DNA from: a virus | Lineage: Duplodnaviria; Heunggongvirae; Uroviricota; Caudoviricetes | Reading direction: 5' to 3' (one strand) | Length of the DNA stretch: 47,224 nucleotides | Virus record (IMG/VR): IMGVR_UViG_2778261507_000009 | Span: 1-47,224 of that record | Shown here: piece after piece, positions 1 through 42,116 of the stretch | How the letters are laid out: each line of letters opens with the position of its first letter | Position numbering within the stretch: the first letter of the stretch is position 1 | The notes under the pieces: generated by a model | The model's database searches: none | The model's input: the letters and a program-made list of their open reading frames with translations, nothing else | What the model was told of the DNA's origin: nothing | Position numbers and translations under genes: made by a program

Positions 1-1248
1 ATGGCACTGAATATTCCATTCAGAAATGCGTACTATCGTTTTGCATCCAGTTACTCATTTCTCTTTTTTATTTCCTGGTCGCTGTGGTGGTCGTTATACG
101 CTATTTGGCTGAAAGGACATCTAGGGTTGACAGGGACGGAATTAGGTACACTTTATTCGGTCAACCAGTTTACCAGTATTCTATTTATGATGTTCTACGG
201 CATCGTTCAGGATAAACTCGGTCTGAAGAAACCGCTCATCTGGTGTATGAGTTTCATCCTGGTCTTGACCGGACCGTTTATGATTTACGTTTATGAACCG
301 TTACTGCAAAGCAATTTTTCTGTAGGTTTAATTCTGGGTGCGCTCTTTTTTGGCCTGGGTTATCTGGCGGGCTGCGGTTTGCTTGACAGCTTCACTGAAA
401 AAATGGCGCGAAATTTTCATTTCGAATATGGAACAGCGCGCGCCTGGGGATCTTTTGGCTATGCTATTGGCGCGTTCTTTGCCGGCATATTTTTTAGTAT
501 CAGTCCCCATATCAACTTCTGGTTGGTCTCGCTATTTGGCGCTGTATTTATGATGATCAACATGTGTTTTAAAGATAAGGATCACCAGTGCGTAGCGGCG
601 GATGCGGGAGGGGTAAAAAAAGAGGATTTTATCGCAGTTTTCAAGGATCGAAACTTCTGGGTTTTCGTCATATTTATTGTTGGGACGTGGTCTTTCTATA
701 ACATTTTTGATCAACAACTTTTTCCTGTCTTTTATGCAGGTTTATTCGAATCACACGATGTAGGAACGCGCCTGTATGGTTATCTCAACTCATTCCAGGT
801 GGTACTCGAAGCGCTGTGCATGGCGATTATTCCGTTCTTTGTGAATCGGGTAGGGCCAAAAAATGCATTACTTATCGGTGTTGTGATTATGGCGTTGCGT
901 ATCCTTTCCTGCGCGCTGTTCGTTAACCCCTGGATTATTTCATTAGTGAAGCTGTTACATGCCATTGAGGTTCCACTTTGTGTCATATCCGTCTTCAAAT
1001 ACAGCGTGGCAAACTTTGATAAGCGCCTGTCGTCGACGATCTTTCTGATTGGTTTTCAAATTGCCAGTTCGCTTGGGATTGTGCTGCTTTCAACGCCGAC
1101 TGGGATACTCTTTGACCACGCAGGCTACCAGACAGTTTTCTTCGCAATTTCGGGTATTGTCTGCCTGATGTTGCTATTTGGCATTTTCTTCTTGAGTAAA
1201 AAACACGAGCAAATAGTTATGGAAACGCCTGTACCTTCAGCAATATAG
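1..1248 (+). CDS. cscB: Sucrose permease CscB (MFS, LacY-type oligosaccharide:H+ symporter)
   Basis: 415-aa ORF, hydrophobic multi-TM profile; sequence matches my recollection of E. coli CscB; lies outside the prophage boundary. Confidence 0.8.
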   Translation: MALNIPFRNAYYRFASSYSFLFFISWSLWWSLYAIWLKGHLGLTGTELGTLYSVNQFTSILFMMFYGIVQDKLGLKKPLIWCMSFILVLTGPFMIYVYEPLLQSNFSVGLILGALFFGLGYLAGCGLLDSFTEKMARNFHFEYGTARAWGSFGYAIGAFFAGIFFSISPHINFWLVSLFGAVFMMINMCFKDKDHQCVAADAGGVKKEDFIAVFKDRNFWVFVIFIVGTWSFYNIFDQQLFPVFYAGLFESHDVGTRLYGYLNSFQVVLEALCMAIIPFFVNRVGPKNALLIGVVIMALRILSCALFVNPWIISLVKLLHAIEVPLCVISVFKYSVANFDKRLSSTIFLIGFQIASSLGIVLLSTPTGILFDHAGYQTVFFAISGIVCLMLLFGIFFLSKKHEQIVMETPVPSAI

Positions 1249-7194: not shown

Positions 7195-8163
7195 TTAGTA
7201 GGTTATTTTTGTTGCGAATACTTCGCCTTTTACGATGGCTGTTATGATATTTTTAGCAACATCTTCTGATGCACCAACCTTGATAAGGTCAGCAAGTATT
7301 TTGTTATTTACTTCTTTCCGGTGAGCTTTATCCTTTGCTCTACGCTCTTCTTCTTCCTTGATTCTTTTTTCTTCTGCTATTCTGGCTTGCTCTTTTGCTT
7401 CAGCCTCGCGCCGGATTCGTTCAGCCTCCTCCTGTGCTTTTCGGCGTTCTGCTTCAATTGCCGCCTGCTTTTCTCTTTCAGCTCGTTCTGCTGCCTCTTT
7501 TGCTTCGCGCTGTGCTCGTTGCTCGGCTTCAATGCGTTCACGCTCTGCACGTTCCGCTGCGGCCTTAGCTTCTGCTTCTCGCCTTGCTGCTGCTTCAATT
7601 TCGGCTTTTGCCTTTGCTTCGGCTTCTGCTCTGGCTCTCTCTTCAGCTTCTCTTTTTAAGCGTTCTTCATGCTCTCGCTTTTCCCGCTCCGCTTTGAGTC
7701 TTGCCTCTTCTCTTTGGCGGTCAAATTCGCGATCCATCAAAATCGCTATTTCATGGTCAGACTCAATTTGCTTTGCGAGAGCTTCAGCTGCTGCCTTAGC
7801 TTCTTCTTCGGCTTTAATCCGTGCCTGCTCCTCCTCATAATCAGTAAGAGGCTGGCGCGCCTTGGCTTTCAGTTCATCAAGGCGATCGCGCACTGTCTTG
7901 CGGTTGGCATCAATTAGCTTTGGAATTTCCTTCAGTTCAGCAACAAGGTCTTTGCCAAGACCATCGAGATATGTTTTCGTCTGCGCAACTTTATACGCCA
8001 GAGAAGCGATCTCCTTTCTGCCCTTTGCCGTTGTGATATCAGGCACAAAGGACATAACTTCACGTTCAACCTTTTGAAGGATTTCTTCAATCTGGTCGGC
8101 AGACTGAAATACAGTCATTGCATTTGCTTTTTCAATAACAACTAAATCTGTTACTTCACTCAT
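7195..8163 (-). CDS. Hypothetical coiled-coil protein with long Glu/Arg/Ala-rich low-complexity repeat
   Basis: 322-aa ORF; central roughly 130 residues are EAxxAR-type repeats. Confidence 0.6.
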   Translation of the reverse strand: MSEVTDLVVIEKANAMTVFQSADQIEEILQKVEREVMSFVPDITTAKGRKEIASLAYKVAQTKTYLDGLGKDLVAELKEIPKLIDANRKTVRDRLDELKAKARQPLTDYEEEQARIKAEEEAKAAAEALAKQIESDHEIAILMDREFDRQREEARLKAEREKREHEERLKREAEERARAEAEAKAKAEIEAAARREAEAKAAAERAERERIEAEQRAQREAKEAAERAEREKQAAIEAERRKAQEEAERIRREAEAKEQARIAEEKRIKEEEERRAKDKAHRKEVNNKILADLIKVGASEDVAKNIITAIVKGEVFATKITY

Positions 8164-8198: not shown

Positions 8199-8510
8199 TC
8201 AGGCTGCTGAGGTTTCTTCTTTCAGGCTTTCGATATATTTACGTGGGTCGTCGTAACATTGGCATTCGCTGTACCAATCCACCCAGCGATCAGTAAGCCC
8301 CATCTCTGATAAATCTTCATCGGTAAGGCTCTCATCCCACATCTCAAGGCCGTTAGCATTGCAGTAATCAGGCTTGATGTTGTTGTCATACTGAAAGGCG
8401 TCATAATCAGCCAGTGCGTCCATCAGGCGAACACCCTCTTCAACACTTGCCACTTCTACAATGAACGGCTTCATAGGTACTTGCGGGATATGCCAGACAC
8501 GTAATTTCAT
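8199..8510 (-). CDS. Hypothetical strongly acidic small protein
   Basis: 103-aa ORF; about 24 Asp/Glu versus about 9 basic residues. Confidence 0.5.
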   Translation of the reverse strand: MKLRVWHIPQVPMKPFIVEVASVEEGVRLMDALADYDAFQYDNNIKPDYCNANGLEMWDESLTDEDLSEMGLTDRWVDWYSECQCYDDPRKYIESLKEETSAA

Positions 8511-8828: not shown

Positions 8829-9686
8829 TTAAGCGAAGCACAGTCCAGAATCGCAGAATTGTATAAGATCCATTTGTGCATTTTTACCACCACTAGGTGT
8901 TAGTGGTGCCTCAGATAGTGGAACACCATATTTAGTAAGCCACAAATGAGGCCACTTCATTTGTATCTCTTTTTCATGCTGACATGCTCTTTCAAAATCA
9001 GATGGGACGTTATTTTTCATATAAAGCCACAGATCATCATCTCTGTTAGGGCACATCCAGCAAAGCGAGGCAGGTGGTGTAGGAAGACCATAATCCTCGA
9101 CACATTGAATTGCCATCTGTTTAGTCATTAGCATTTCAATAAGTGGATAGCGCCTCTGCCACTTGCCAGTTGGGTATTTCGCTCTTCGTTTAGCCTCTTC
9201 AATGCTTATCCCCATCCAACTATCCACTCCTCTTGCTGTAAGATACTTCTCTCCATATCTTTCATTTAAAAATCTCTGAATAACTTCAGTTTTCCACTTT
9301 ATAGAACAAAATGCTGGTTGCTTTCCAGCGCACATTCCTTTTGAATCCCTTCCCTCATATTCTGTGAAATATCCAGGTAGAGGAACGTCTGGATCAGGCC
9401 CATCAATGTCGTAGGTAGCAAATCTACTTTTAGGAACAATCAGGTAATCAACACCCATATCTTCACAAATAGGAGCTATATATTTTTTCTGATATTCAAA
9501 TACATTACTTGCCTCACGTTCTGTATCTGACATAACGATAATGTCAGGCTTTGGAAGAACGCCAGCATGTACTAAGCAGATTATTGCGTTACTTTGAGTC
9601 CCACCACCGGAAGAAATAACATTTAGTCTTTCTGGATTATGCTTGAATTCTCTTCTTGGTATGAATTTACTTGTAAATCCTGGCAT
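8829..9686 (-). CDS. PAPS reductase-like PP-loop ATP pyrophosphatase family protein
   Basis: 285-aa ORF; SGGGTQS PP-loop near N-terminus and Cys-rich C-terminal region. Confidence 0.6.
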   Translation of the reverse strand: MPGFTSKFIPRREFKHNPERLNVISSGGGTQSNAIICLVHAGVLPKPDIIVMSDTEREASNVFEYQKKYIAPICEDMGVDYLIVPKSRFATYDIDGPDPDVPLPGYFTEYEGRDSKGMCAGKQPAFCSIKWKTEVIQRFLNERYGEKYLTARGVDSWMGISIEEAKRRAKYPTGKWQRRYPLIEMLMTKQMAIQCVEDYGLPTPPASLCWMCPNRDDDLWLYMKNNVPSDFERACQHEKEIQMKWPHLWLTKYGVPLSEAPLTPSGGKNAQMDLIQFCDSGLCFA

Positions 9687-10280: not shown

Positions 10281-10319
10281 CAATCTGTTCCGTTTGGCTA
10301 CCAGCTTCCTGCTGATGTG

Positions 10320-10385
10320 TTTAGTATCACCGCTAGTGGTATTTATGTCAACACCGCCAGAGATAATTTATCACCGCAGATGGTT
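10320..10385 (-). promoter_or_regulatory. pL promoter with OL1-OL2-OL3 operators (lambda type)
   Basis: Three 17-bp operators; -35 TTGACA and -10 GATACT on minus strand. Confidence 0.75.
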
Positions 10386-10530
10386 ATCTGTATGTTTTTT
10401 ATATATATTTATTTTTTGCCGGGGTGTGTTGCTGGGGGGATCGAGAGATCAGAATTGCGATGTTTAGTGAGTTGTATCTATTTATTTTTCAATAAATACA
10501 ATTGATTATGTTTTTTAGGTGGACGATCGT

Positions 10531-10561
10531 GAGGCAAAGAAAACCCGGCGCTGAGGCCGGG
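10531..10561 (-). terminator. Intrinsic terminator ending the cI immunity transcript (t-imm-like)
   Basis: 6-bp GC stem CCCGGC/GCCGGG followed by T-run on minus strand, 8 nt after the stop of 10569..11441. Confidence 0.55.
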
Positions 10562-10568
10562 TTGTATA

Positions 10569-11441
10569 TTATTTAATTTCTTTTTCCGGTAAATACATTG
10601 TCATTTGAACAGGTTTCTTTCCATAGTGTTGAGCAACTCGACTTCTTAGCTCATGCATGGTGTCGCATGTTTTTGCGACCCCAATAACCTCCCAGCACCT
10701 TGATACAAGCTGCCTTACACCTAGGTTCTCGGTTAACTGTCTATGCCAGTGAACTCCTGCCGCAGGCTTGTTTTCTTTAAGATATTTAGCCACATCTTCG
10801 TCAAGAGTGTCATAAATTAACTCTATAACTAATTTCCCCCACCATTTGGGCCTTGATTGCAATGGGGTACTCCATCCTGTCAATCTACCAAATTCTTCCC
10901 ATAACTCATCAGGAAATGTTTTTTCCCATGCTCTTAGTTCCTCAGCGATGAACGCCCTGAGTTTTACTTGGAGAGCATCCTCTGCGCGCTCATACTGATA
11001 CCCAGTAGCCTCATCAATTAGAGCATCTAACCCAGTCCTGGTTAAACCTGCTGTTAATACAGCACATTTAATTGCTATTTCTCGCTGTCTATCTGTCAAT
11101 GGCGCGCCTTTGTATAGCGCCTGTACATAGCCGCGACAAATCAATTCAAATTGCTCAGTCTTAAGTCCTTGGCTCTTAAATTGGGTTCCTGGTATGGAAA
11201 ACTCTATGAGTTCGGCCAGGACTAAGTCTTTGTCTATAAAGCCATTAAGTGAGCTAACGCCAATAAATTTAGCCAGGTCTCCTGACTCCGCATTGGCAAT
11301 TGCTTTTACAGTTGCTCGCAAAGCTATAACACGATGTCCAGTGTCAAGCACATAGCAATCAATACTTTCACCACCTAAGTCGATCTTCCCCTTCCATTTT
11401 GCGAATGGGGATGGTAATTGCTGTAAATCATCATGTTCCAT
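10569..11441 (-). CDS. Unknown protein co-transcribed with cI, occupying the rexA-rexB slot
   Basis: 290-aa ORF starting 31 nt downstream of cI stop on the same strand; no recognisable motifs; alternative upstream start at 11537 would overlap cI. Confidence 0.55.
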   Translation of the reverse strand: MEHDDLQQLPSPFAKWKGKIDLGGESIDCYVLDTGHRVIALRATVKAIANAESGDLAKFIGVSSLNGFIDKDLVLAELIEFSIPGTQFKSQGLKTEQFELICRGYVQALYKGAPLTDRQREIAIKCAVLTAGLTRTGLDALIDEATGYQYERAEDALQVKLRAFIAEELRAWEKTFPDELWEEFGRLTGWSTPLQSRPKWWGKLVIELIYDTLDEDVAKYLKENKPAAGVHWHRQLTENLGVRQLVSRCWEVIGVAKTCDTMHELRSRVAQHYGKKPVQMTMYLPEKEIK

Positions 11442-11472
11442 TAATTGAATTACCCTTTTTTGCTGCGTTGAA

Positions 11473-12189
<717 letters not shown>

Positions 12190-12196
12190 TTAAATC

Positions 12197-12260
12197 TATC
12201 ACCGCAGGGGATAAATATCTAACACCGTGCGTGTTGACTATTTTACCTCTAGCGGTGATA
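12197..12260. promoter_or_regulatory. OR3-OR2-OR1 operators with divergent pRM/pR promoters
   Basis: Three 17-bp lambda-type operators between cI and cro. Confidence 0.8.
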
Positions 12261-12277
12261 ATGGTTGCATGTACTAA

Positions 12278-12487
<210 letters not shown>

Positions 12488-12494
12488 GTAACAC

Positions 12495-12537
12495 CGCTCT
12501 TTAACAGTCATGGTCCTCATTCCCGCCGAAATGCGGG
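12495..12537 (+). promoter_or_regulatory. nutR-like site (boxA CGCTCTTTAA, boxB CCCGCCGAAATGCGGG)
   Basis: Same boxB hairpin as nutL, between cro and cII. Confidence 0.45.
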
Positions 12538-12596
12538 AATACAACGCGCATAAGTTGATGCGCATAACTTCTTATTTGTTAAGGAAATACTTACAT

Positions 12597-12890
12597 ATGG
12601 TTCGTGCAAACAAACGCAACGAGGCTCTACGAATCGAGAGTGCGTTGCTTAACAAAATCGCAATGCTTGGAACTGAGAAGACAGCGGAAGCTGTGGGAGT
12701 TGATAAGTCGCAGATCAGCAGGTGGAAGAGGGACTGGATTCCAAAGTTCTCAATGCTGCTTGCTGTTCTTGAATGGGGCGTCGTTGACGACGATATGGCT
12801 CGATTGGCACGACAAGTTGCTTCGATTCTCACCAATAAAAAACGCCCGGCGGCAACCGAGCGTTCTGAACAAATCCAGATGGAGTTTTAA
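12597..12890 (+). CDS. cII: CII transcriptional activator
   Basis: 97-aa ORF from MVRANKRNEALRIESALL matching lambda CII as recalled. Confidence 0.85.
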   Translation: MVRANKRNEALRIESALLNKIAMLGTEKTAEAVGVDKSQISRWKRDWIPKFSMLLAVLEWGVVDDDMARLARQVASILTNKKRPAATERSEQIQMEF

Positions 12891-34328: not shown

Positions 34329-36607
34329 TGGCTAAAGCATGGAAAGATGTTATCGCCTCTCCACAGTATCAGGCGTTAGCACCAGAACAAAAAGCGCAGG
34401 CTCAGGAACAATACTTCAATGAAGTCGTGGCCCCGCAAGCCGGAGAAAATGCAGAGCAGGCAAAACAAGCGTTTTACTCTGCTTACCCTAGAGGTCTGCT
34501 AGAGAAGGGTAATATTGACATTCACAATCGGCCTGTTGTTAAAAACTCTGATGGCAGCATTAGCACTGTGCGGAGCATGTCTACCAATATAGATGGTAGA
34601 GAGGTGCTGATTCCTACCGTTAGTGATGATGGTCGCATTATGTCTGATGATGAAGCTATTGATAACTTCATGAGGACGGGAAAGCATCTTGGTATGTTCG
34701 ACAATCCTGACGATGCCACTGCATATGCGGAGAGTCTGCACAACCAGCAAGCTGATGAATACCTCCCTAGGAAGAATCAAGCTACACAACAGCCTGTACA
34801 GCAAAGTACACAGGCAGCGCCACAGCAGCAAGGAGGTTTCATTTCCGACCTTGGCAATGCCGCGGCTGAAACTGGTCGCGGACTGGTGCAGGCTGGCGTG
34901 AACGTGGCAAACATACCTGCATCAGTTGCCGATGCTGTAACAAGTGCGGCTGCATGGGCTGGCGGTAAACTCGGTATTGGTGATGGTACATATCAACCAG
35001 CGCCACGAGTAACAACGCAGGGATTAGAGCAGGACTTTGGCCTTCAGCAAGGCGCGCTGACTCCACAAACGACAGAGGGAAGGGTATTTGCTGAAGCATT
35101 GCCTTACCTCACTCCTGCTGGCGTTGAGAGAGCAGCAACACAGGCACCAACACTTGCTGGTCGAATTGCTCAGGGGGCAACACGACTTCTCGCAGAAAAC
35201 GCAGTTGGATCACTTGCTGCAAATAGTGCGAAAGATGATGCGGAAGCACTCGCCACCGATTTAGGCGTTGGTGTGCTGGCTGGCGGTGCTATTAACGCTG
35301 CCGGACGTGGATTAGGTGCTGCTTATCGTGGTGTTCGTGGTTCGATAGCACCAGAAGCGCAACAGGCTATCAGATTTGCAGAGCGTGAAGGAGTTCCTCT
35401 GCACACCACAGACCTGTTACAACCCACTTCCCGCGTCGGAAAAATGGCGCAGACTACAGCAGAAAATATCCCTCTGGCTGGCACAAGCGGAATGAGAGCA
35501 ACGCAACAGGAAGCGAGAAGCCAGTTGGTGCAGAGATTTGCTGATAAATTCGGTGAGTATGATCCAGCGGTTGTTATTGACAGCCTTAAAGCGAAAACAT
35601 CAGGAATTCGTCGTGCTGCAGGGAACCGTCTTGAGCAGGTTCAGAATGCAATGGCGGGAGTCAATATCAAGCCTGCGCGAGCAATTCAGCAGATTGATAC
35701 TGAGATATCTAATCTGCAGAAGCTTGGTAAGGTAGCTGATAACGAGACAATTTCAAAACTTCAGTCATATCGTGATGAGCTTGTTCGCAATGCCGGCCCT
35801 GATGGTCCGGTAAATCTGGATTTGAAGCAATTAAGCGACCTGCGCAGCCAGTTCAGAATGGACGTGAAGGGTGAGCGACCAGTGTTACCAAACCGTTCCG
35901 ATGCTGCCATTCAGCGCGTTTACAAGGCAATGACTGACGATATCAATGGCGCCATTGGTCAGAATCTTGGCAATGATACTCTTCGTAAATATCAGCAGGC
36001 CAATGCCGTCTACGCTGACGAAGCGGCGAAACTAAAGAATACCAGGCTGAAGAATGTTCTCATGAAAGGCGACCTGACGCCGGAAGTTGTCAACAACATG
36101 CTATTCAGCAAGAACAAATCGGAAATTAAGACGCTGTATAACTCAGTTGGTCGTGTTGGCAGGGCGCAAATGCGCAATGGCATCATTGGAAAGGCGATGG
36201 AGAAATCTGGCGGATCCCCTGACCAGTTCCTTCGGCAGCTTAACATCCTGCAAAACCAGACTGGCATCACATTTAAAGGTCAGGAAGCCGCTTATCTGAA
36301 AGGATTGAAAAACTACCTGCAATCCACGCAGCAGGCTGCAAAAGCAGCAGTAACAACACCAACAGGGCAGCAAACCATCCCGTTCATTATCGGGTATGGG
36401 ACGGCAATGAACCCGGCGACAACTGGCGCAGCGGTAAGCTACGGACTTCTTACTCGCGCCTATGAAAGCGAGCCATTCAGAAATGCAATGCTCCGAATGG
36501 CAAACACCCCACGCGGATCAACAGCCTTTGAGAAAGCAATGCAGCAGGCACAAAAGGCAATTAACGCTCTGACGCAGGGGGCTAAGTCTGATGCGTTGTC
36601 AGAATAG
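34328..36607 (+). CDS. Ejection / DNA transfer protein gp16-like
   Basis: 759-aa ORF, last gene of the structural operon before the immI-like region. Confidence 0.55.
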   Translation: MAKAWKDVIASPQYQALAPEQKAQAQEQYFNEVVAPQAGENAEQAKQAFYSAYPRGLLEKGNIDIHNRPVVKNSDGSISTVRSMSTNIDGREVLIPTVSDDGRIMSDDEAIDNFMRTGKHLGMFDNPDDATAYAESLHNQQADEYLPRKNQATQQPVQQSTQAAPQQQGGFISDLGNAAAETGRGLVQAGVNVANIPASVADAVTSAAAWAGGKLGIGDGTYQPAPRVTTQGLEQDFGLQQGALTPQTTEGRVFAEALPYLTPAGVERAATQAPTLAGRIAQGATRLLAENAVGSLAANSAKDDAEALATDLGVGVLAGGAINAAGRGLGAAYRGVRGSIAPEAQQAIRFAEREGVPLHTTDLLQPTSRVGKMAQTTAENIPLAGTSGMRATQQEARSQLVQRFADKFGEYDPAVVIDSLKAKTSGIRRAAGNRLEQVQNAMAGVNIKPARAIQQIDTEISNLQKLGKVADNETISKLQSYRDELVRNAGPDGPVNLDLKQLSDLRSQFRMDVKGERPVLPNRSDAAIQRVYKAMTDDINGAIGQNLGNDTLRKYQQANAVYADEAAKLKNTRLKNVLMKGDLTPEVVNNMLFSKNKSEIKTLYNSVGRVGRAQMRNGIIGKAMEKSGGSPDQFLRQLNILQNQTGITFKGQEAAYLKGLKNYLQSTQQAAKAAVTTPTGQQTIPFIIGYGTAMNPATTGAAVSYGLLTRAYESEPFRNAMLRMANTPRGSTAFEKAMQQAQKAINALTQGAKSDALSE

Positions 36608-36697
36608 CTTTTCAAACACCAGGAACGTGCAAAAACCAAATATGTAGAACGCGAGGTTTATCGTACCACTCTGCATAGGCGATACCTTTGCTGATTG

Positions 36698-37183
36698 TTA
36701 TCTGATGTTACTGCTACTGTTGCATGTGACTGTATTTCCAAACCCTGAATTGCAGTTTGTGTAAGTGTCAACTCGTGTTGGATAGGGTTGAGTTATAACA
36801 GGCTGTCTCGCTTTTTGCTCGATCGCTTGCATTGTGTTTACAGCCTGATAATTCAATAAAGCCTGCTGGAATGCTTGGCTTTGTGCTATTTGTTGGGCTT
36901 GTTCTTGGCTTTGTAATTGAACATAAAGATTCTGAAGCTCAAGCCTTGCCTGTGCGTCACTTATCTTGCCTTCATCGACACCTTGCCCGAGCATCTTCGC
37001 AGCAAGGACATACAGCTTAGGTGTTGGTGCTGATGCCATGCGTGAGTCGTTCTTCACACTGGCATCAAGGCAATTAGCCATATCGCTAAGCTTTTGATAG
37101 CGTTGTTCGCAACTTGCTTGATAGTCACTTACTTTTGCGCATCCAACCAGTAGAAGCGGGATAATTAACAGTGATTTTTTCAT
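36698..37183 (-). CDS. Lipoprotein moron (possible exclusion or conversion factor)
   Basis: 161-aa ORF with AAGGAG RBS; signal peptide and lipobox LLVGC; opposite strand to flanking structural genes. Confidence 0.6.
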   Translation of the reverse strand: MKKSLLIIPLLLVGCAKVSDYQASCEQRYQKLSDMANCLDASVKNDSRMASAPTPKLYVLAAKMLGQGVDEGKISDAQARLELQNLYVQLQSQEQAQQIAQSQAFQQALLNYQAVNTMQAIEQKARQPVITQPYPTRVDTYTNCNSGFGNTVTCNSSSNIR

Positions 37184-37252
37184 ATGGTTAACTCTCCTTA
37201 GTTTTTCACAGGATATCATGAAGGCAATGACTTTTATCCGGAAACTAGATTT

Positions 37253-37519
37253 CTATGTTTCCTTTTTATTATTGCTATACATGGTCTTAAGCGTTTCAAA
37301 AACCATTTTCTTAACCATATCAGATTGTTGTTCTGCCATACGCTCTGCATCGTCAATGTAAACGGATGCAGAGCTTTGTTTAGCCAATGATTCTTCAATC
37401 GCTGCAATTATCTCTGAGTTCAGCGACCTGTTATTCATCTTCGCACGCTGTTTAATCTTCGCGTGGAGTTCATGCGGAAGTCTCAAGTGAAACTGCGCCT
37501 CGTCGTATTTGCTGTACAT
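37253..37519 (-). CDS. mnt: Mnt-like ribbon-helix-helix repressor
   Basis: 88-aa ORF; NNRSLNSEIIAAIEESL and C-terminal AERMAEQQSDMVKKMVFETLK closely resemble P22 Mnt as recalled. Confidence 0.75.
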   Translation of the reverse strand: MYSKYDEAQFHLRLPHELHAKIKQRAKMNNRSLNSEIIAAIEESLAKQSSASVYIDDAERMAEQQSDMVKKMVFETLKTMYSNNKKET

Positions 37520-37640
37520 CCTTGATGCCTCACCAGTTGGGTGGAATGGCATCGTAACCTACTGGATAAATACTCAATAGTACCATTTCGGTATGCAATC
37601 ACATCATGGTTGCATCATATCATTCGTCTGGAGCAATGAA

Positions 37641-39446
37641 ATGTCAGATATCACCGCAAATGTTGTGGTAAGCATGCCTTCGCAACTCTTCACTATGGCT
37701 CGTTCTTTTAAAGCCGTAGCCAATGGCAAAATTTATATTGGTAAAATTGACACTGACCCTGTAAATCCTGAAAACCAGATTCAGGTTTATGTAGAGAACG
37801 AAGACGGCTCTCACGTTCCTGTATCGCAACCAATCATCATTAACGCTGCTGGATATCCGGTATATAACGGACAGATTGCCAAGTTCGTAACTGTACAGGG
37901 CCATTCTATGGCTGTTTATGATGCGTATGGTGCACAGCAGTTTTATTTTCCTAATGTGCTGAAGTATGACCCTGATCAGTTTGGTCCAGACTTCAAAGAG
38001 CAGTTATCTCAATCAGGGGAATACATTAATGATGATTCAAAAGGTGATGCATTAATTGGCGTAAGACAGCCCGTTGCCGGGTCGGTAGCTATCACACAGC
38101 ATGATAAAAACGCACAAATAATCAACTTAAAAGATTTTGGTGCTAAGTGCGATGGTGTAACTGATGACACAGTGGCAATTCAGGCTGCTGTAGCTGCTGC
38201 GCATACTGGTGTCCGTATAGTTCAACCTGCAGGGGTTTGCCTTACATCTCAGCCGTTGTCATTCACTAGTCCTGCATTTTGGTATGGAGATGATGGCGCT
38301 CGCATTAAGCTCATTAGTGGCAGTCATGACTATGTTATGGAAATTGATCTTCGCGGGCCTAGTGGTTCGTTCTGGGGTTATGGGTCACATATTGAAAACA
38401 TTATCTTTGATGGTGGTGGTCACGCAAAAGATGGCCTTTCATTGCGTGGTGTTATCGGAGGTATATTCAAAAATATTCGTGGGACAAATATATCAAGGGC
38501 CGCTATTCATGAATGGTGGACCCAACTTTGCCACTATGAAAATATTCAATGCAGTAATAATATTGAAGCATTCCAAACAACCCCTGTTCACGGAATCTTA
38601 TCTGATTGTGAGTTTGGAACTGGTAATGATCGTGGGTCTTCTGCAAATACTTACATGAATACCACTATTGAACATACCTCTGGTAGTGGGATTTGTGGGG
38701 TGTTTATGTCTAATTGTACATTTATAAATGGCACATCAGAAGGTAACGATATTGGCATTGAGTTTGGTCACGCTACTGATGATAGAAACCAATCAGTTGG
38801 GAATTCAGTTATTGGTATGGATCTTGAGGTTAATTCTTTAACTGATGTGTTATTACATAAAACAACATATGCAAATGACTTTATTGGTCTAAAAGCTGGT
38901 TATTCATCTCCAGCCATTCAGGTGCAAGGCTCATATGCTAATAGCTTTATTGGTGGAGTAAGCAGTGGTATAGATTTTGACTCATCATCGCATGATAATA
39001 AAGTAATAGGTATGAATCTTTTAGGCAACGATTCTATCATCGTAGATAATGGATCAAGAAATTCATATGAGAATATTTTCAATATTTCATCTGGAGCTAA
39101 AAAAGAAAGCACTAACCCTTATCCATCGCGTAGCAACAATATAATTTCATCAAATGGTACTGTGCAAATTAACCCATTTTTATCATCATACTGTGTTGTG
39201 TCGGCTGCTGGTTCACCAATTAATGTTACGTCTGTAGCAAAAAGATTAGACGGTGCGACTATTGATATGACTATTCATAACATTTCTGGATCTGATGAAT
39301 TAATAGTAAACTGGTCTTCTGACTTCAGAGTTTCTGGATGGACAAGCCCGGCAACAGGGCGCCACCGGTCTATAAGATTTGCTTATGATGCAAACTACGG
39401 ATACTGGACTGCTATATCTATGAGTCAGTCAGATATTCTGAACTAA
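37641..39446 (+). CDS. Tailspike protein: P22-type head-binding N-domain fused to a pectate-lyase-like beta-helix receptor domain
   Basis: N-terminal 120 aa match P22 gp9 as recalled; remainder has beta-helix repeats and is AT-rich. Confidence 0.85.
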
Positions 39447-39467: not shown

Positions 39468-40586
39468 TTATTCCCCCTGTTTTACTTTCCTCATATCCAC
39501 CAGTTTACCAGGGATGCTCATAAATATCCTATTTCTAATCTTGTTAGTAAGTATCACTTCAATATATTTATGCGAAAGAAATGCAATAAAAATTGATAAA
39601 ATTAGTAAAATAGTGAACCCGTATACATTGTGCATCACACCTGGATTATTAGCCTCAACCTGCCATGAAATGTAACTACCTACCTGGTTATGAAGCAGAT
39701 ACCATGAGAAGGAAATATCACCAAGCATTACAAAAAATGATGGTGTAATTTTTGTTATAACTTCATCATTTATTACGAACGCCACTAAGAGGAAGTATGC
39801 AATGATGCCTGTCTTTAAATTATAACCTTCAATAGAACCATTGAAGACTGCAGTCATAAAAATTAATGCCGATATAGCAGTGAATGAGTATTTTAATCTA
39901 TTGCTCCATGATTTTGCTGAACGCACTGTGTGCCCAGCAAGGATGCCTAAAGCAAATTCAATTACTATCGGATTTGTTAAAAAGCTAAGTTCTGGAGTAC
40001 CAGTTTTATAACCTGAAGTGGATAATGTTACATTTCCAGTCAACATATATCCTACAAGGATAGTTGTCATTATCCATACGACTATGCCAGAGGTTCTTTT
40101 ATTGAATAATAAACAAAGTGCGAATACAAGATAGAAGTATAATTCATAGTTAAGCGTCCATCTAATAACAAATATACCACCAGCATCAACATACAAAGGA
40201 GGGTACGCATCCGTAAAAGGAGAGAATGTTAAAGCACTCAGTAAATTTTCCACCTTAGCTTGGTCAACGAAGATTCCAACTTCCCATGTAAAGTAGAAAG
40301 CTGTAAAGAGAGCAATAAAATATGTAGGAAAAATCCTTGTGAGTCTTTCTACGGAAAAGAATATAGCAGACTTTATACCAGATGGCTTACGGCTAGTGAT
40401 ATGCATCATAATAAAACCACTTATTACGAAGAACAAATCAACACCAGCAGAACCCCAAGATAAATATTTATTAGGGATAGTTAAATCTCCATACAATGGT
40501 GATAACCAAAATCTGTAGTGAAAAAGAACTACAGACAATGCAGCTAATCCTCTAAGTATCTGTACTGAGCTAAGTTTATTGTTCAT
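39468..40586 (-). CDS. Acyltransferase family 3 membrane protein (O-antigen acetylase Oac-like)
   Basis: 372-aa multi-TM ORF, AT-rich; N-terminal RGLAALSVVLFH motif typical of acyltransferase_3; between tailspike and int as oac is in Sf6. Confidence 0.75.
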   Translation of the reverse strand: MNNKLSSVQILRGLAALSVVLFHYRFWLSPLYGDLTIPNKYLSWGSAGVDLFFVISGFIMMHITSRKPSGIKSAIFFSVERLTRIFPTYFIALFTAFYFTWEVGIFVDQAKVENLLSALTFSPFTDAYPPLYVDAGGIFVIRWTLNYELYFYLVFALCLLFNKRTSGIVVWIMTTILVGYMLTGNVTLSTSGYKTGTPELSFLTNPIVIEFALGILAGHTVRSAKSWSNRLKYSFTAISALIFMTAVFNGSIEGYNLKTGIIAYFLLVAFVINDEVITKITPSFFVMLGDISFSWYLLHNQVGSYISWQVEANNPGVMHNVYGFTILLILSIFIAFLSHKYIEVILTNKIRNRIFMSIPGKLVDMRKVKQGE

Positions 40587-40797
40587 TATTAAACCGATCA
40601 CTTTCTGTAAATGTCATTCACATGATTATGCGATAAAACCCATAGTAATCCATTATAAATTTTTCTATATGAAACATAAGAAAAATTCACTGAGTTGTTG
40701 AATTGATACATCTCATCTTTCAACGACAATGTCTACAAAACACACAAAGCTTTGCACTGGATTGCAATGATTTGTGTCATTCGATAGTTAATGTGGA

Positions 40798-41955
40798 TCA
40801 CTCCACCTTTTCATCAAGCCAGTCCGCCCACCATTGCATCATTTCTCTGCGCTTATCGAGATACTGAGCATGGTTGTAAATCCCGCGCACAGAACCGCCG
40901 TTGGCATGTGCCAGCTGCACTTCAATAGCGTCAGCAGGCCATTCGTGCTCGTTCATAATCGTGCTGAATTCATGCCTGAATCCGTGACCGCTTTCCAGAC
41001 CTTCATAGCCGATTTGTTTGATCACAAGCAATACCGCGTTCTCGCAGATTGGCTTCTTCTTATCGTTGCGCCCGGCAAAAACAAACTCTGAGACTGGTTT
41101 GGTGATTGAGCTTAGCGTAGTGAGAAGTTCAACCACCTGGTCTGACATCGGGACCACATGAATTTTGCGTCCCTTCATCACACTGGCGTCGATGGTGATA
41201 ATCCTGTTTTCAAAATCGACGTTCTTCCATAGCATGGAACGAAGCTCTTTTGTTCTTAGGGCTGTGTAGCGTAAAACTTTGGTCGCAATGAGCGATACGA
41301 TACTTCCTGAAAATGTTGCCAGTGCTTTGTTGAATGCCGGGATCTGGTCTGCAGGAAGAAACGGGAAGTTCTTCTTGCGGTATCCCTTCATGGCGTCCGC
41401 AAGGTCAGGTGCCGGGTTGTATTTAGCCCTTCCGGTGACAATAGCGTAACGGAAAACTTCGCCGCATCTTCTGCGGGCTTTGTTGGCTCGCTCCATTGCA
41501 CCGCGATCTTCAAATCTGCGGATTACTTCCAGCAGTTGCATCGGCTCAATATCCTGAATTTCAAGGCTGCCGATGATAGGTAAAATGTCGTCATCAAACA
41601 TTTTTGCAAGTTCATTTGCATAGCCTACTGACCAGACTTGCTTCTTGTGCTCGTACCATTCCTTGTAAATGGCACTAAAGGAATTGTTGTTAGACGAAGC
41701 CTTTTTCGCTTTTACCGGATCGATACCAACCGAGATGTCTTTCCTCGCAGTCCATGCTTTATCCCTTGCCTCCTGCAAAGTCATAAGCGGATATTTTCCT
41801 ACGGTCAGTATTTTTTCCTTACCGTCAATCTTGTAGCGAAGCTGCCATACCTTTTTCCCGGATACAGGGACATAAAGGTACAGGCCATTACCATCGAGAA
41901 GGCGGTATGGTTTTTCTTTCGGCTTTGCTGCTTCAATCTGCTTAACGGTGAGCAT
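40798..41955 (-). CDS. intS: Tyrosine integrase (P4/IntS family)
   Basis: 385-aa ORF from MLTVKQIEAAKP, adjacent to argW; C-terminal catalytic HxxR...Y region; matches IntS as recalled. Confidence 0.85.
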   Translation of the reverse strand: MLTVKQIEAAKPKEKPYRLLDGNGLYLYVPVSGKKVWQLRYKIDGKEKILTVGKYPLMTLQEARDKAWTARKDISVGIDPVKAKKASSNNNSFSAIYKEWYEHKKQVWSVGYANELAKMFDDDILPIIGSLEIQDIEPMQLLEVIRRFEDRGAMERANKARRRCGEVFRYAIVTGRAKYNPAPDLADAMKGYRKKNFPFLPADQIPAFNKALATFSGSIVSLIATKVLRYTALRTKELRSMLWKNVDFENRIITIDASVMKGRKIHVVPMSDQVVELLTTLSSITKPVSEFVFAGRNDKKKPICENAVLLVIKQIGYEGLESGHGFRHEFSTIMNEHEWPADAIEVQLAHANGGSVRGIYNHAQYLDKRREMMQWWADWLDEKVE

Positions 41956-42116
41956 GGGTAAAAATCCGGTGGGTAAAATTATTTTATCCACTTTTTACCC
42001 GTCATGGAGTGCGGCTGTCAACGATCTGACGCGAACCATTACGAACTGTTAATCTACGGAAGGCTTGATATTCAGGGGATTTTGCGGACTGGTACGGATG
42101 GGAGCGAACTGATAAA

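What the first reader, a model, noticed from the sequence alone, without database searches (positions are those of the whole stretch)
10531..11441. Unrecognised 290-aa gene co-transcribed with the cI repressor in the rexAB slot: candidate prophage-encoded exclusion/defence determinant
Seen in sequence: the ORF begins 31 nt after the cI stop on the same strand and ends 8 nt before a GC-rich hairpin with a T-tract (10531..10561). Together with pRM-cI this forms an operon with the same architecture as lambda pRM-cI-rexA-rexB-t-imm. Established knowledge: genes in this slot are expressed in the lysogen and are a classical location for exclusion systems such as RexAB. The protein here does not resemble RexA or RexB as I recall them. 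It has no predicted TM segment, Walker A motif, or obvious nuclease or toxin motif; the only hint is an R-x5-H pattern near the C-terminus (RSRVAQH), compatible with but not evidence for a HEPN-type fold. Inference: a single-gene passenger of the immunity operon with unknown, possibly anti-phage, function.
Basis: partly seen in the sequence, partly recalled or inferred. Interest (0 to 1): 0.8.

Follow-up and report, generated by a model that had tools for sequence, protein, structure and literature searches.

The report
Conserved mystery gene replacing lambda rexAB
In this lambda-immunity prophage the classical rexA-rexB exclusion genes are replaced by one gene of the uncharacterised P63C family; the family is unusually conserved and also rides inside insertion sequences in many bacterial phyla, so it is a good but unproven candidate for a new function carried by mobile elements, possibly phage exclusion.

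Summary
A 290-aa ORF (10569-11441, minus strand) starts 31 nt after the stop of a near-lambda cI. It ends 5 nt before a hairpin plus T-tract that is lambda's own t-imm terminator. The 908-bp insert replaces lambda 35827-37225, i.e. rexB plus rexA.

The gene is not unrecognised. It belongs to Pfam P63C (PF10546) and PHROG 2384, and RefSeq annotates it that way. No function, structure or study of the family was found. The R-x5-H/HEPN hint fails: that His is present in only 21 of 82 homologs.

Homologs sit directly behind immunity repressors in Salmonella, Erwinia, Halomonas, Streptococcus and Gordonia phages, and an identical protein follows a different repressor elsewhere. So "cargo of the immunity operon" is well supported.

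Two results were unexpected. First, conservation is extreme: 58-84% identity across phyla with saturated synonymous sites. Second, about 45% of chromosomal homologs lie beside IS1595 or IS1-like transposases. Several lie within the inverted repeats, flanked by 8-bp target duplications.

There is no match to known defence families (PADLOC, RexA/B), and only a weak N-terminal resemblance to BstA. A defence role is plausible by position only (confidence about 0.4). No usable structure model could be made.

The parts
10569..11441 (-). P63C-family gene, 290 aa plus stop; the single cargo gene of the immunity operon
   Evidence: ORF. Pfam P63C E 2.3e-22. PHROG 2384 E 1.3e-86. Start supported by the homolog alignment and by the GenBank annotation of an identical copy. 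dN 0.08 with saturated synonymous sites against SI8.
11037..11408 (-). N-terminal region (residues 12-135): a beta-beta-alpha start (IDCYVLDTGHRVIALRATVKAI) followed by helices; a possible DNA-binding module
   Evidence: Conserved G18, V31, L32, R37, G92, C102, Q119. The only resemblance found is weak: hhalign aligns residues 25-154 with BstA 26-156, BstA's KilA-N-like domain, at P 0.016 and probability 2.9%. Secondary structure comes from low-confidence models only.
10995..11033 (-). Invariant acidic motif G137-L-D-A-L-I-D143-E144-A-T-G-Y-Q149; candidate active or binding site
   Evidence: Invariant in A2 (9 phage homologs found by tblastn, 26-90% identity) and in A3 (59 database homologs). 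It is also 82/82 in A5, but most A5 loci were retrieved with this pattern.
10707..10961 (-). Pfam P63C domain proper (residues 161-245), with invariant F176, P177, Y210 and near-invariant R186, R197, P198, H233
10534..10563 (-). Intrinsic terminator, identical in its hairpin to lambda t-imm; the 3' boundary of the exchangeable cassette
   Evidence: The hairpin is conserved after the homologs in SI8 and Midgardsormr38 and after most phage-borne copies. The same terminator follows other cargo genes in hundreds of E. coli genomes.
11442..11472 (-). 31-nt cI-to-gene spacer with an AAGGG Shine-Dalgarno-like element 11 nt before the ATG; no terminator or promoter detected in it
   Evidence: Sequence; scan.
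11473..12186 (-). cI repressor of lambda immunity (HTH_3 plus Peptidase_S24), 2 substitutions relative to lambda
10525..11502 (-). Extent of DNA homology with the Salmonella phage SI8 cassette: from about 27 nt inside the repressor 3' end to just past the terminator. This is the mobile cassette with its two recombination anchors.
   Evidence: blastn; alignment.
10304..10430 (-). OL/PL region, with a PL-like promoter at 10351-10323, downstream of the terminator; lambda-like
12234..12262 (+). PR-like promoter in the OR region between cI and cro. PRM itself was not picked up by the consensus scan.
   Evidence: lambda homology.

Best explanation
Shown: the gene is the terminal cistron of the lysogenic pRM-cI transcript of a P22-like prophage with lambda immunity. 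It sits exactly where lambda has rexA-rexB and is bounded by the t-imm terminator.

Shown: it encodes a soluble 290-aa protein of the P63C family. The protein has an N-terminal beta-beta-alpha/helical region, an invariant acidic ALxDEATGYQ motif, and a helical P63C domain carrying invariant or near-invariant Arg, Tyr and His residues.

Inferred: the protein is made at low constitutive level in lysogens together with cI. It acts on nucleic acid, most likely the DNA of an incoming or competing element, as a single-protein exclusion or abortive-infection factor. This would work like BstA or RexAB without being related to them, and it would benefit whichever resident mobile element carries it: prophage, insertion sequence or small plasmid.

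Basis for the nucleic-acid inference: relatives repeatedly add an N-terminal Cro/YdaS-type HTH or a basic helix, and the conserved polar constellation looks enzyme-like.
For: Position and transcription unit:
- Exact replacement of rexBA, and shared t-imm terminator.

The slot is a known cargo and exclusion hotspot:
- rexAB, hicAB, an NYN-domain gene and others occupy it in lambda-immunity phages.
- BstA sits in the same place in BTP1. PMC8585504 discusses the cI-N region as a hotspot.

Conserved position:
- Homologs lie directly behind the repressor on the same strand in SI8, ST104, Midgardsormr38, Halomonas, Streptococcus Javan515 and Gordonia Kuwabara.
- 11 of 75 upstream neighbours in IMG/VR contigs are S24 repressors, and more are XRE/CI-type HTH proteins.
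- A terminator follows nearly all phage copies.

Cargo behaviour:
- An identical protein lies behind a different repressor.
- Cassette boundaries fall in the repressor 3' end and the terminator.
- In SEN34 the gene lies on the opposite strand to its neighbours, like a moron.
- It occurs on 5.8-kb and 8.5-kb plasmids, once next to a restriction-endonuclease fragment.

Nucleic-acid link:
- N-terminal HTH fusions: YdaS 10, P22_Cro 8, HTH_17 3, CI 2, MerR 1, out of 82 members.
- A basic N-terminal extension in many others.
- A weak N-terminal alignment to BstA's KilA-N-like domain.

Functional integrity:
- All family-invariant residues are present, and purifying selection is strong.
Against: - No match to any of 5,027 PADLOC models for this protein or for four phage homologs. 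Across 82 members there are only chance-level hits.
- No similarity to RexA or RexB. There is no significant similarity to BstA: hhalign probability is 0.8-2.9%.
- Conservation is atypical for defence proteins in an arms race: 58% identity to Saccharopolyspora isolates and 73-80% to IS-borne alphaproteobacterial copies, with saturated synonymous sites.
- About 45% of chromosomal homologs are linked to IS1595 or IS1-like transposases, some translationally coupled. This could indicate a role in the element's own DNA transactions.
- In 933W the homolog lies in the nin region on the same strand as its neighbours, so it is presumably expressed in lytic growth.
- No expression data, phenotype or usable structure model are available.
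Confidence: 0.4

Rival explanations
1. The P63C protein is an accessory factor for the mobile element's own DNA transactions. For example it could be a DNA-binding cofactor, regulator or retention factor for IS1595 and IS1-type transposition. The phage copies would then be a co-opted or hitch-hiking version with a related DNA-handling role, not a defence role.
For: - 35 of 77 chromosomal loci have an IS1595-like (22-23) or IS1-like (13) transposase adjacent.
- In the tandem form the P63C ATG overlaps the transposase stop (ATGGCTGA, ATGGATAA) in several clades.
- Inverted repeats matching at 18-20 of 20 positions enclose both genes.
- Perfect 8-bp target-site duplications flank the two-gene unit in L013, L015 and L085.
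- Divergence of the two genes is partly correlated (Spearman 0.39, p 4e-4).
- Conservation is extreme, as expected for a protein working on DNA or a universal host factor.
- N-terminal HTH or basic modules occur in relatives.
Against: - The window has no IS1595 or IS1-like transposase, and the phage and plasmid copies examined have none nearby.
- Partners are swapped. L022's transposase is 76% identical to L074's while their P63C proteins are 34% identical.
- Three different arrangements occur (tandem, divergent, downstream), with two transposase families.
- IS-borne and phage-borne copies are intermixed in the tree.
- All of this fits a captured cargo gene better than an integral transposition component.
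- From my own recall of ISfinder, not checked here: most IS1595-family members have a single ORF.
Confidence: 0.25
2. The protein is a regulatory partner of the immunity repressor. It would be a member of the Bro/KilA/Ant-like world of modular phage regulators that tunes maintenance or induction of lysogeny by sensing a signal or modulating the repressor or its operators.
For: - Adjacency to repressors recurs in phages of Proteobacteria, Firmicutes and Actinobacteria.
- About 15% of family members are fused to Cro/YdaS/CI-type HTH domains, which gives a fusion-versus-adjacency pattern.
- From my own recall, not checked here: P63C was defined among modular phage regulatory proteins.
Against: - Lambda-immunity phages carry unrelated cargo or rexAB in this slot with essentially the same cI and operators, so the switch does not need this gene.
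- An identical protein follows a different repressor.
- Many copies have no repressor nearby: nin-region copies, IS-borne copies and plasmid copies.
Confidence: 0.12
3. The protein is a HEPN-type RNase that uses the C-terminal R-x5-H motif (RSRVAQH).
For: The motif is present in the window protein (residues 266-272) and is kept in close relatives at 73% identity or more.
Against: - Across 82 family members His272 is His in only 21, with Leu, Val, Lys and Tyr among the alternatives, and Arg266 is Arg in only 49.
- There is no Pfam or PADLOC HEPN hit.
- The truly invariant residues lie elsewhere: D143, E144, T146, F176, Y210.
Confidence: 0.02
4. The gene is a lysogenic-conversion or host-fitness factor unrelated to phage exclusion or to element mobility, for example one that modulates host physiology or virulence.
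For: - Genes in this slot can have such reports. According to PMC8585504, bstA was first linked to virulence phenotypes.
- The window prophage carries other conversion-type cargo, namely an acyltransferase next to the integrase.
Against: - The family spans soil, marine and gut bacteria of many phyla with 45-80% identity. That argues for a universal molecular target, not a host-specific trait.
- The association with IS elements and small plasmids also argues against a niche-specific role.
Confidence: 0.08

Closest known systems
Pfam P63C domain family (PF10546; named after the C-terminus of Myxococcus phage Mx8 p63) / PHROG 2384
   Same: This is clear membership. The Pfam hit scores 79.8 bits against a 26.1-bit cut-off. 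The protein matches PHROG 2384 over its full length (E 1e-86). All family-invariant residues are present. RefSeq already uses this name.
   Different: The family has no assigned function, no solved structure and no experimental study in the held literature. The Pfam model covers only residues 161-245. The most conserved motif (residues 137-149) and the N-terminal region lie outside it.
Lambda RexA/RexB abortive-infection system
   Same: It has the identical genomic slot and transcription unit: cI, then cargo, then t-imm. The window gene replaces lambda 35827-37225 exactly.
   Different: There is no sequence similarity (blastp E>=1.8; family HMM E>=0.1). It is one soluble protein instead of a sensor plus a membrane protein. 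Its function is untested.
BstA of Salmonella prophage BTP1 (Owen et al. 2021, PMC8585504)
   Same: It is a single gene of about 300 aa directly downstream of the prophage repressor, upstream of N, followed by its own terminator, and carried by P22-like phages. There is a possible similar N-terminal beta-beta-alpha module: hhalign aligns window residues 25-154 with BstA 26-156.
   Different: It is not detectably homologous. The PADLOC BstA model does not hit it, there is no Pfam KilA-N hit, and hhalign probability is 0.8-2.9%. The paper reports BstA in Gram-negative bacteria. P63C spans many phyla, is far more conserved and is also carried on IS elements. No counterpart of BstA's aba self-immunity element was looked for here.
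Two-ORF members of the IS1595 family (from my recall of ISfinder, its 'passenger-carrying' subgroups such as ISNwi1-type; not checked here) and IS1-like elements
   Same: The closest non-enterobacterial relatives of the window protein (68-82% identity) are ORF2 of about 2.0-kb IS1595-family elements. These have GGGGyCTATATAC... inverted repeats and 8-bp target duplications.
   Different: The window copy has no transposase, inverted repeats or target duplication around it. It is embedded in a phage immunity operon instead.
Other cargo of the lambda-type immunity slot (HicAB in mEp234/HK106, an NYN-domain protein in ev099, gp48/49 in HK97; Degnan et al. 2007 as cited in PMC8585504)
   Same: These share the flanks (cI 3' end, t-imm terminator, OL/PL) with a different passenger.
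   Different: The proteins are unrelated, and none of these phage records carries the P63C gene at nucleotide level.

Membership tests
P63C domain family (PF10546 / PHROG 2384) | Significant match to the Pfam P63C model above its gathering threshold | tested here: met
   79.8 bits against a 26.1-bit cut-off, E 2.3e-22, residues 161-245. All 82 homologs examined also match.
P63C domain family (PF10546 / PHROG 2384) | Full-length homology to family members, including the ALxDEATG(Y/F/H)Q motif and the FP, RP and Y positions | tested here: met
   PHROG 2384 at E 1.3e-86 over residues 6-287. Invariant columns in A2 and A3. Column counts.
Lambda-type immunity-operon cargo (rexAB slot) | Located between the cI stop and the t-imm terminator, on the cI strand, with lambda-homologous flanks | tested here: met
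   Window 10304-10563 equals lambda 35570-35826, and window 11472-12886 equals lambda 37226-38649. Terminator.
Lambda-type immunity-operon cargo (rexAB slot) | Transcribed from pRM (or pRE) in the lysogen | not testable with these tools
   There is only indirect support: a 31-nt spacer with no terminator-like or promoter-like site detected in it. No RNA data are available.
RexA/RexB | Sequence homology to RexA or RexB | tested here: not met
   blastp best E 1.8; family HMM E>=0.1; no PADLOC hit.
BstA family | Match to the BstA profile, or significant profile-profile similarity | tested here: not met
   No PADLOC BstA hit for the window protein. Only 1 of 82 relatives hits, at E 0.006, which is chance level. 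hhalign probability is 0.8% and 2.9%.
BstA family | N-terminal KilA-N(-like) DNA-binding domain | tested here: inconclusive
   No Pfam KilA-N hit. However, the only hhalign alignment covers window 25-154 against BstA 26-156, the published KilA-N-like region (32-147), at P 0.016.
BstA family | Abortive-infection phenotype with a cognate self-immunity (aba) DNA element | not testable with these tools
   This requires experiments.
HEPN nucleases | Conserved R-x4-6-H catalytic motif | tested here: not met
   R266 is Arg in 49 of 82 and H272 is His in 21 of 82 family members. No HEPN profile hit.
Known anti-phage defence systems (PADLOC-DB v2) | Match to any defence-protein model | tested here: not met
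   0 families at E<=1 for the window protein. There is nothing meaningful for four phage homologs or for 82 members. The library dates from 2023, so later systems are not covered.
Known anti-phage defence systems (PADLOC-DB v2) | Measured protection against phage | not testable with these tools
   No study of the family was found in the held literature.
IS1595-family two-ORF insertion sequence | Adjacent DDE_Tnp_IS1595 transposase, terminal inverted repeats and an 8-bp target duplication around the gene | tested here: not met
   This is met for relatives (L013, L015, L063, L085). The window itself has no such transposase and no inverted-repeat remnant after the gene.

The most novel reading that the evidence does not exclude
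P63C proteins are a previously unrecognised, ancient and exceptionally conserved effector that resident mobile elements of all kinds carry as a portable module: prophage immunity operons, IS1595 and IS1-like insertion sequences, and small plasmids.

One reading is a new single-protein anti-phage or anti-MGE exclusion family with a nucleic-acid-directed active site built around the invariant D143-E144. IS1595 elements would then be defence-carrying insertion sequences.

The other reading is a new kind of element-retention factor, comparable in spirit to TnpB in IS200/IS605.
Probability: 0.3. Interest if true: 0.8.

Novelty: new member of a known kind. Interest (0 to 1): 0.6.

Why it matters
The region between cI and N in lambdoid phages is where RexAB and BstA were found, so every uncharacterised occupant is a defence candidate that can be tested directly.

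This occupant stands out for three reasons:
- It belongs to a family with thousands of members and no known function or structure.
- It is conserved across phyla at roughly the level one expects of housekeeping proteins, despite living on mobile DNA.
- The same gene is packaged inside insertion sequences that transpose it as a unit.

If it is a defence gene, it would be a new family. It would also show that simple IS elements spread immunity genes. If instead it serves the element's own DNA transactions, it would be a new accessory function shared by transposons and temperate phages.

Either way, the invariant DE motif gives a clear mutational handle, and E. coli lysogens carrying the gene exist in public collections.

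Tried and rejected
Tool failures and limits:
No fold search was run, because matches to such models would be meaningless.

Searches that found nothing:
- Sequence and profile searches of the PDB.
- NCBIfam.
- Literature searches for P63C, 'P63C domain', PF10546, and P63C with phage found only passing mentions.
- The Iyer 2002 paper and the Siguier IS review are not in the library.
- ISNwi1 and IS1595 passenger-gene searches gave no description of a P63C ORF.
- The HepS (Nature 2026) and TerI papers were opened and are unrelated.

Ideas rejected:
- HEPN motif.
- RexA/B homology.
- BstA homology.
- A Walker-B-like reading of ALIDE, because there is no Walker A motif.
- An HUH motif at H231-W-H233, because position 231 is not conserved (consensus).
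- An IS remnant around the window copy. The TATACAACCC after the stop resembles an IS right end but is at the wrong spacing, and no transposase is present.
- The RefSeq TTG start at 11480.
Full report
**1. What is in the sequence**

On the minus strand an ORF runs from ATG 11441 to TAA 10571-10569 (290 aa). It begins 31 nt after the TGA of a 237-aa HTH_3 plus Peptidase_S24 repressor (11473-12186). That repressor differs from lambda cI at two residues.

Five nucleotides after the stop lies an 8-bp, G+C-rich hairpin (10563-10542) followed by TTTTCTTT. It folds at -14.6 kcal/mol, z = -2.4.

Alignment with phage lambda shows where the insert sits. Window 10304-10563 equals lambda 35570-35826, which covers OL/PL up to the t-imm hairpin and ends at the rexB stop. 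Window 11472-12886 equals lambda 37226-38649, which runs from the cI stop through cro and cII. The 908 bp in between therefore replace exactly the 1,399 bp holding rexB and rexA.

RefSeq calls a TTG start at 11480 that overlaps cI (303 aa). In an alignment with the homologous cassettes of Salmonella phage SI8 and Erwinia phage Midgardsormr38, conservation starts at the ATG at 11441 and each gene has a Shine-Dalgarno-like element upstream. A GenBank annotation of an identical copy uses the same ATG. I therefore keep the 290-aa form.

**2. What the protein is**

It is not unrecognised.
- It matches Pfam P63C (PF10546) at 79.8 bits against a 26.1-bit cut-off, over residues 161-245.
- It matches PHROG 2384 (unknown function) over its whole length, E 1.3e-86.
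- Eleven of 5,426 complete E. coli genomes carry it at 99.6% nucleotide identity or more, annotated 'P63C domain-containing protein'.
- No deposited phage genome has it at nucleotide level.
- NCBIfam, PADLOC-DB v2 and the PDB, searched by sequence and by family profile, give nothing.
- The held literature mentions P63C proteins only in passing, as hypothetical proteins.

The protein has no Walker A motif and no TM segment.

In 82 homologs His272 is His in 21 and Arg266 is Arg in 49.

The invariant positions lie elsewhere. They are G137, A140-L141, D143-E144-A-T-G147, F176, Y210 and G241. R37, C102, Q119, Y148, Q149, R152, P177, R186, R197, P198 and H233 are conserved at 90% or more. One caveat applies: the genome and viral loci were retrieved with the peptide pattern AL[VI]DEATG, so invariance of that motif in A5 is partly circular. 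It is independently invariant in A2 (tblastn hits, 26-90% identity) and in A3 (database hits).

**3. Context in phages**

By tblastn, 62 phage records encode homologs.

The gene lies directly downstream of the immunity repressor, on the same strand, in these phages:
- Salmonella phage SI8 (90% identity), which has a different repressor.
- ST104 orf23 (27% identity), behind an HK022-type cI.
- Erwinia phage Midgardsormr38 (60% identity).
- A Halomonas genome (73% identity).
- Streptococcus pyogenes prophage Javan515, in the order repressor, gene, integrase.
- Gordonia phage Kuwabara, where immunity repressor gp49 is followed by gp48.

In 75 IMG/VR loci the nearest upstream gene is on the same strand in 57. 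It is an S24 repressor in 11 and an XRE/CI-type HTH protein in several more. A rho-independent terminator follows nearly every phage copy.

Some placements differ. In 933W the gene is in the nin region on the same strand as its neighbours. In SEN34 it is in the nin region on the opposite strand, like a moron. In Burkholderia DC1 it is at the end of the repressor-recET block, next to the integrase.

The cassette is exchangeable. An E. coli IncF plasmid-borne prophage encodes a 100% identical protein behind a different repressor. DNA homology with SI8 runs only from about 27 nt inside the repressor 3' end (window about 11502) to just past the terminator (about 10525). The terminator itself recurs after unrelated cargo, such as DUF2335 and DUF1828 proteins, in hundreds of E. 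coli genomes. Other lambda-immunity phages carry rexAB, hicAB, an NYN-domain gene, HK97 gp48/49 or hypothetical genes in this slot.

The same slot holds BstA in Salmonella phage BTP1. Owen et al. note the conserved placement behind the repressor and the hotspot nature of the cI-N region (PMC8585504).

**4. Unexpected findings**

(a) Conservation. The 120 best database hits are 73-100% identical. They come from Enterobacterales, Pseudomonas, Burkholderiaceae, Delftia, Rhodanobacter and several Alphaproteobacteria.

A scan of one genome per species found at least 577 relatives. Cultured isolates include Saccharopolyspora (58% identity), Acrocarpospora (55%), Acidomonas (75%), Sphingomonas (73%), Pseudanabaena (45%), Lentibacillus (41%), Limnoglobus (35%) and Chryseobacterium (33%).

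This is not recent transfer. Synonymous sites are saturated even against the 90%-identical SI8 copy (pS 0.77, dN 0.08). IS-borne alphaproteobacterial copies have GC3 of 0.51-0.77 against 0.36 in the window, yet keep 73-80% amino-acid identity.

(b) Insertion sequences. In 16 of 77 chromosomal loci the gene immediately upstream on the same strand is an IS1595-family transposase (PF12762 plus PF12760). Six or seven more loci have such a transposase in divergent or downstream orientation. Thirteen loci have a second, IS1-like transposase family adjacent. In total about 35 of 77 loci, or 45%, are IS-linked.
- In the tandem form the P63C ATG overlaps the transposase stop (ATGGCTGA, ATGGATAA).
- Inverted repeats matching at 18-20 of 20 positions enclose both genes. 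The units are 2,012-2,014 bp in L013, L015 and L063, and 1,930 bp in L085.
- Perfect 8-bp target-site duplications flank L013 (TTAAATTG), L015 (AAAAATAA) and L085 (ATCATCAA). The two-gene unit therefore transposes as one IS.
- Transposase and P63C divergence are only partly correlated, with clear partner swaps.
- In a tree of 141 members, IS-borne, repressor-adjacent and other copies are intermixed. The window's repressor-adjacent clade is sister to a pair formed by an IS1595 ORF2 (L011, 82% identity) and a phage copy (L105).
- The window itself has no such transposase and no IS remnant.

(c) Modularity. About 15% of members carry an N-terminal Cro/YdaS, CI, MerR or HTH_17-type HTH domain. Many others carry a basic KGGxARAxxLSxEERxxIAxKAAxARW extension. 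The window protein has neither.

(d) Small plasmids. The family also occurs on very small plasmids: Deinococcus pDFI4 (5.8 kb) and Acinetobacter pRW2 (8.5 kb), the latter next to a restriction-endonuclease fragment.

**5. Relationship to known systems**

- RexA/RexB: no similarity.
- BstA: no PADLOC hit. hhalign against BstA alone gives probability 0.8%. Against a 47-sequence BstA alignment it gives probability 2.9% and pairwise P 0.016. The one aligned stretch, window 25-154 against BstA 26-156, coincides with BstA's KilA-N-like domain. I treat this as a lead only. It means the gene may work like BstA; it does not make the gene a member of that family.
- PADLOC across all 82 members gives only chance-level hits.

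**6. Interpretation**

Shown:
- The gene is intact and under strong purifying selection.
- It is the last gene of the immunity transcription unit by architecture.
- It is a portable cassette that moves between prophage immunity operons, insertion sequences and plasmids.

Inferred:
- It is expressed in lysogens.
- It acts on nucleic acid. The basis is the HTH and basic fusions in relatives, the invariant acidic pair, and the conserved Arg, Tyr and His residues.
- It most likely provides exclusion or abortive infection that benefits the resident element.

I put this at about 0.4. All positive evidence for defence is positional, and both the extreme conservation and the IS linkage are not what one expects of a typical defence gene.

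The main rival, at about 0.25, is an accessory role in the element's own DNA transactions. This is favoured by translational coupling with transposases. It is weakened by partner swapping, multiple arrangements, and copies with no transposase nearby.

A role as a repressor partner is less likely, at about 0.12, because the lambda switch works with unrelated cargo in this slot. The HEPN idea is rejected.

**7. Limits**

- No reliable 3D model could be made. No fold comparison was run.
- The defence library dates from 2023.
- Gene calls in fetched loci are my own longest-ORF heuristic.
- Many loci come from MAGs, so taxonomic statements rely on the cultured isolates listed above.
- What I say about ISfinder subgroups and about the original definition of P63C rests on my own recall, because the papers were not in the library.

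**8. Verdict**

The gene is a new, uncharacterised occupant of a known cargo slot and a member of a named but unstudied family. It has two surprising properties, cross-phylum conservation and IS carriage, which make it worth testing. Interest is 0.6.

Noticed in passing
L013:3891-5902, L015:3897-5910, L063:3861-5872, L085:2621-4550 (relatives; not in the window): These are two-ORF IS1595-family insertion sequences of about 2.0 kb. ORF2 is a P63C protein whose ATG overlaps the transposase stop. The units are bounded by inverted repeats matching at 18-20 of 20 positions, and in L013, L015 and L085 by perfect 8-bp target duplications. A second, IS1-like transposase family is linked to P63C genes in 13 further loci.
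   Followed up: yes
window 11480 (TTG) versus 11441 (ATG): RefSeq PGAP annotates this gene (WP_000342823.1) from a TTG that overlaps the cI stop by 8 nt, giving 303 aa. Comparison with homologs supports the downstream ATG and 290 aa.
   Followed up: yes
window 10531-10583: The t-imm hairpin and its immediate flank match hundreds of E. coli genomes (557 records), where the sequence follows other genes such as DUF2335, DUF1828 and hypothetical proteins. The terminator appears to be a shared 3' recombination anchor for many different cargo cassettes.
   Followed up: partly
family alignment A5 (for example L004:3321-3490, L007:3273-3490): Many distant family members carry a basic N-terminal extension with the motif KGGxARAxxLSxEERxxIAxKAAxARW. 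Others carry a YdaS/Cro-like HTH of about 65 aa. The window protein has neither. The function of the basic motif is unknown.
   Followed up: partly
phage record MK291442.1 (Paracoccus phage vB_PkoS_Pkon1), 26534-27349: An alphaproteobacterial phage encodes a protein 83.5% identical to this E. coli prophage protein. The authors had noted that this P63C protein is the phage's only link to gammaproteobacterial phages (PMC6536676).
   Followed up: partly
window 8199-8510 (-): This is a homolog of P22 gp17, a superinfection-exclusion protein (Pfam GP17, E 1.5e-55), in the PL operon. The prophage therefore carries at least one recognised exclusion gene besides the candidate.
   Followed up: no
window 8829-9686 (-) and 7195-8163 (-): Two sizeable ORFs (285 aa and 322 aa) in the early-left operon have no Pfam match at E<=0.001.
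   Followed up: no
window 39468-40601 (-) and 40798-41991 (-): An Acyl_transf_3 family acyltransferase lies next to the phage integrase. This resembles an O-antigen-modifying lysogenic-conversion module like gtrC/oac of P22-like phages.
   Followed up: no
whole window (47,224 bases) versus LR597635.1 / NC_049953.1: Escherichia phage ev099 has exactly the same record length (47,224 bp) as the window. However, it matches only the flanks of the query (59% coverage, 95.5% identity) and carries an NYN-domain gene in the slot. This is probably a coincidence.
   Followed up: no
window 10598-10627 (+): A sigma-70-like promoter match (TTGTCA, 18-nt spacer, CATAGT; 9 of 12 positions) lies antisense to the 3' end of the gene. 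The number of such matches in the region is at or below chance expectation.
   Followed up: no
window 11473-12186 (-): The cI protein differs from lambda cI at two positions (K71N and Q201H, counting Met as residue 1). The immunity specificity is therefore presumably lambda's.
   Followed up: partly
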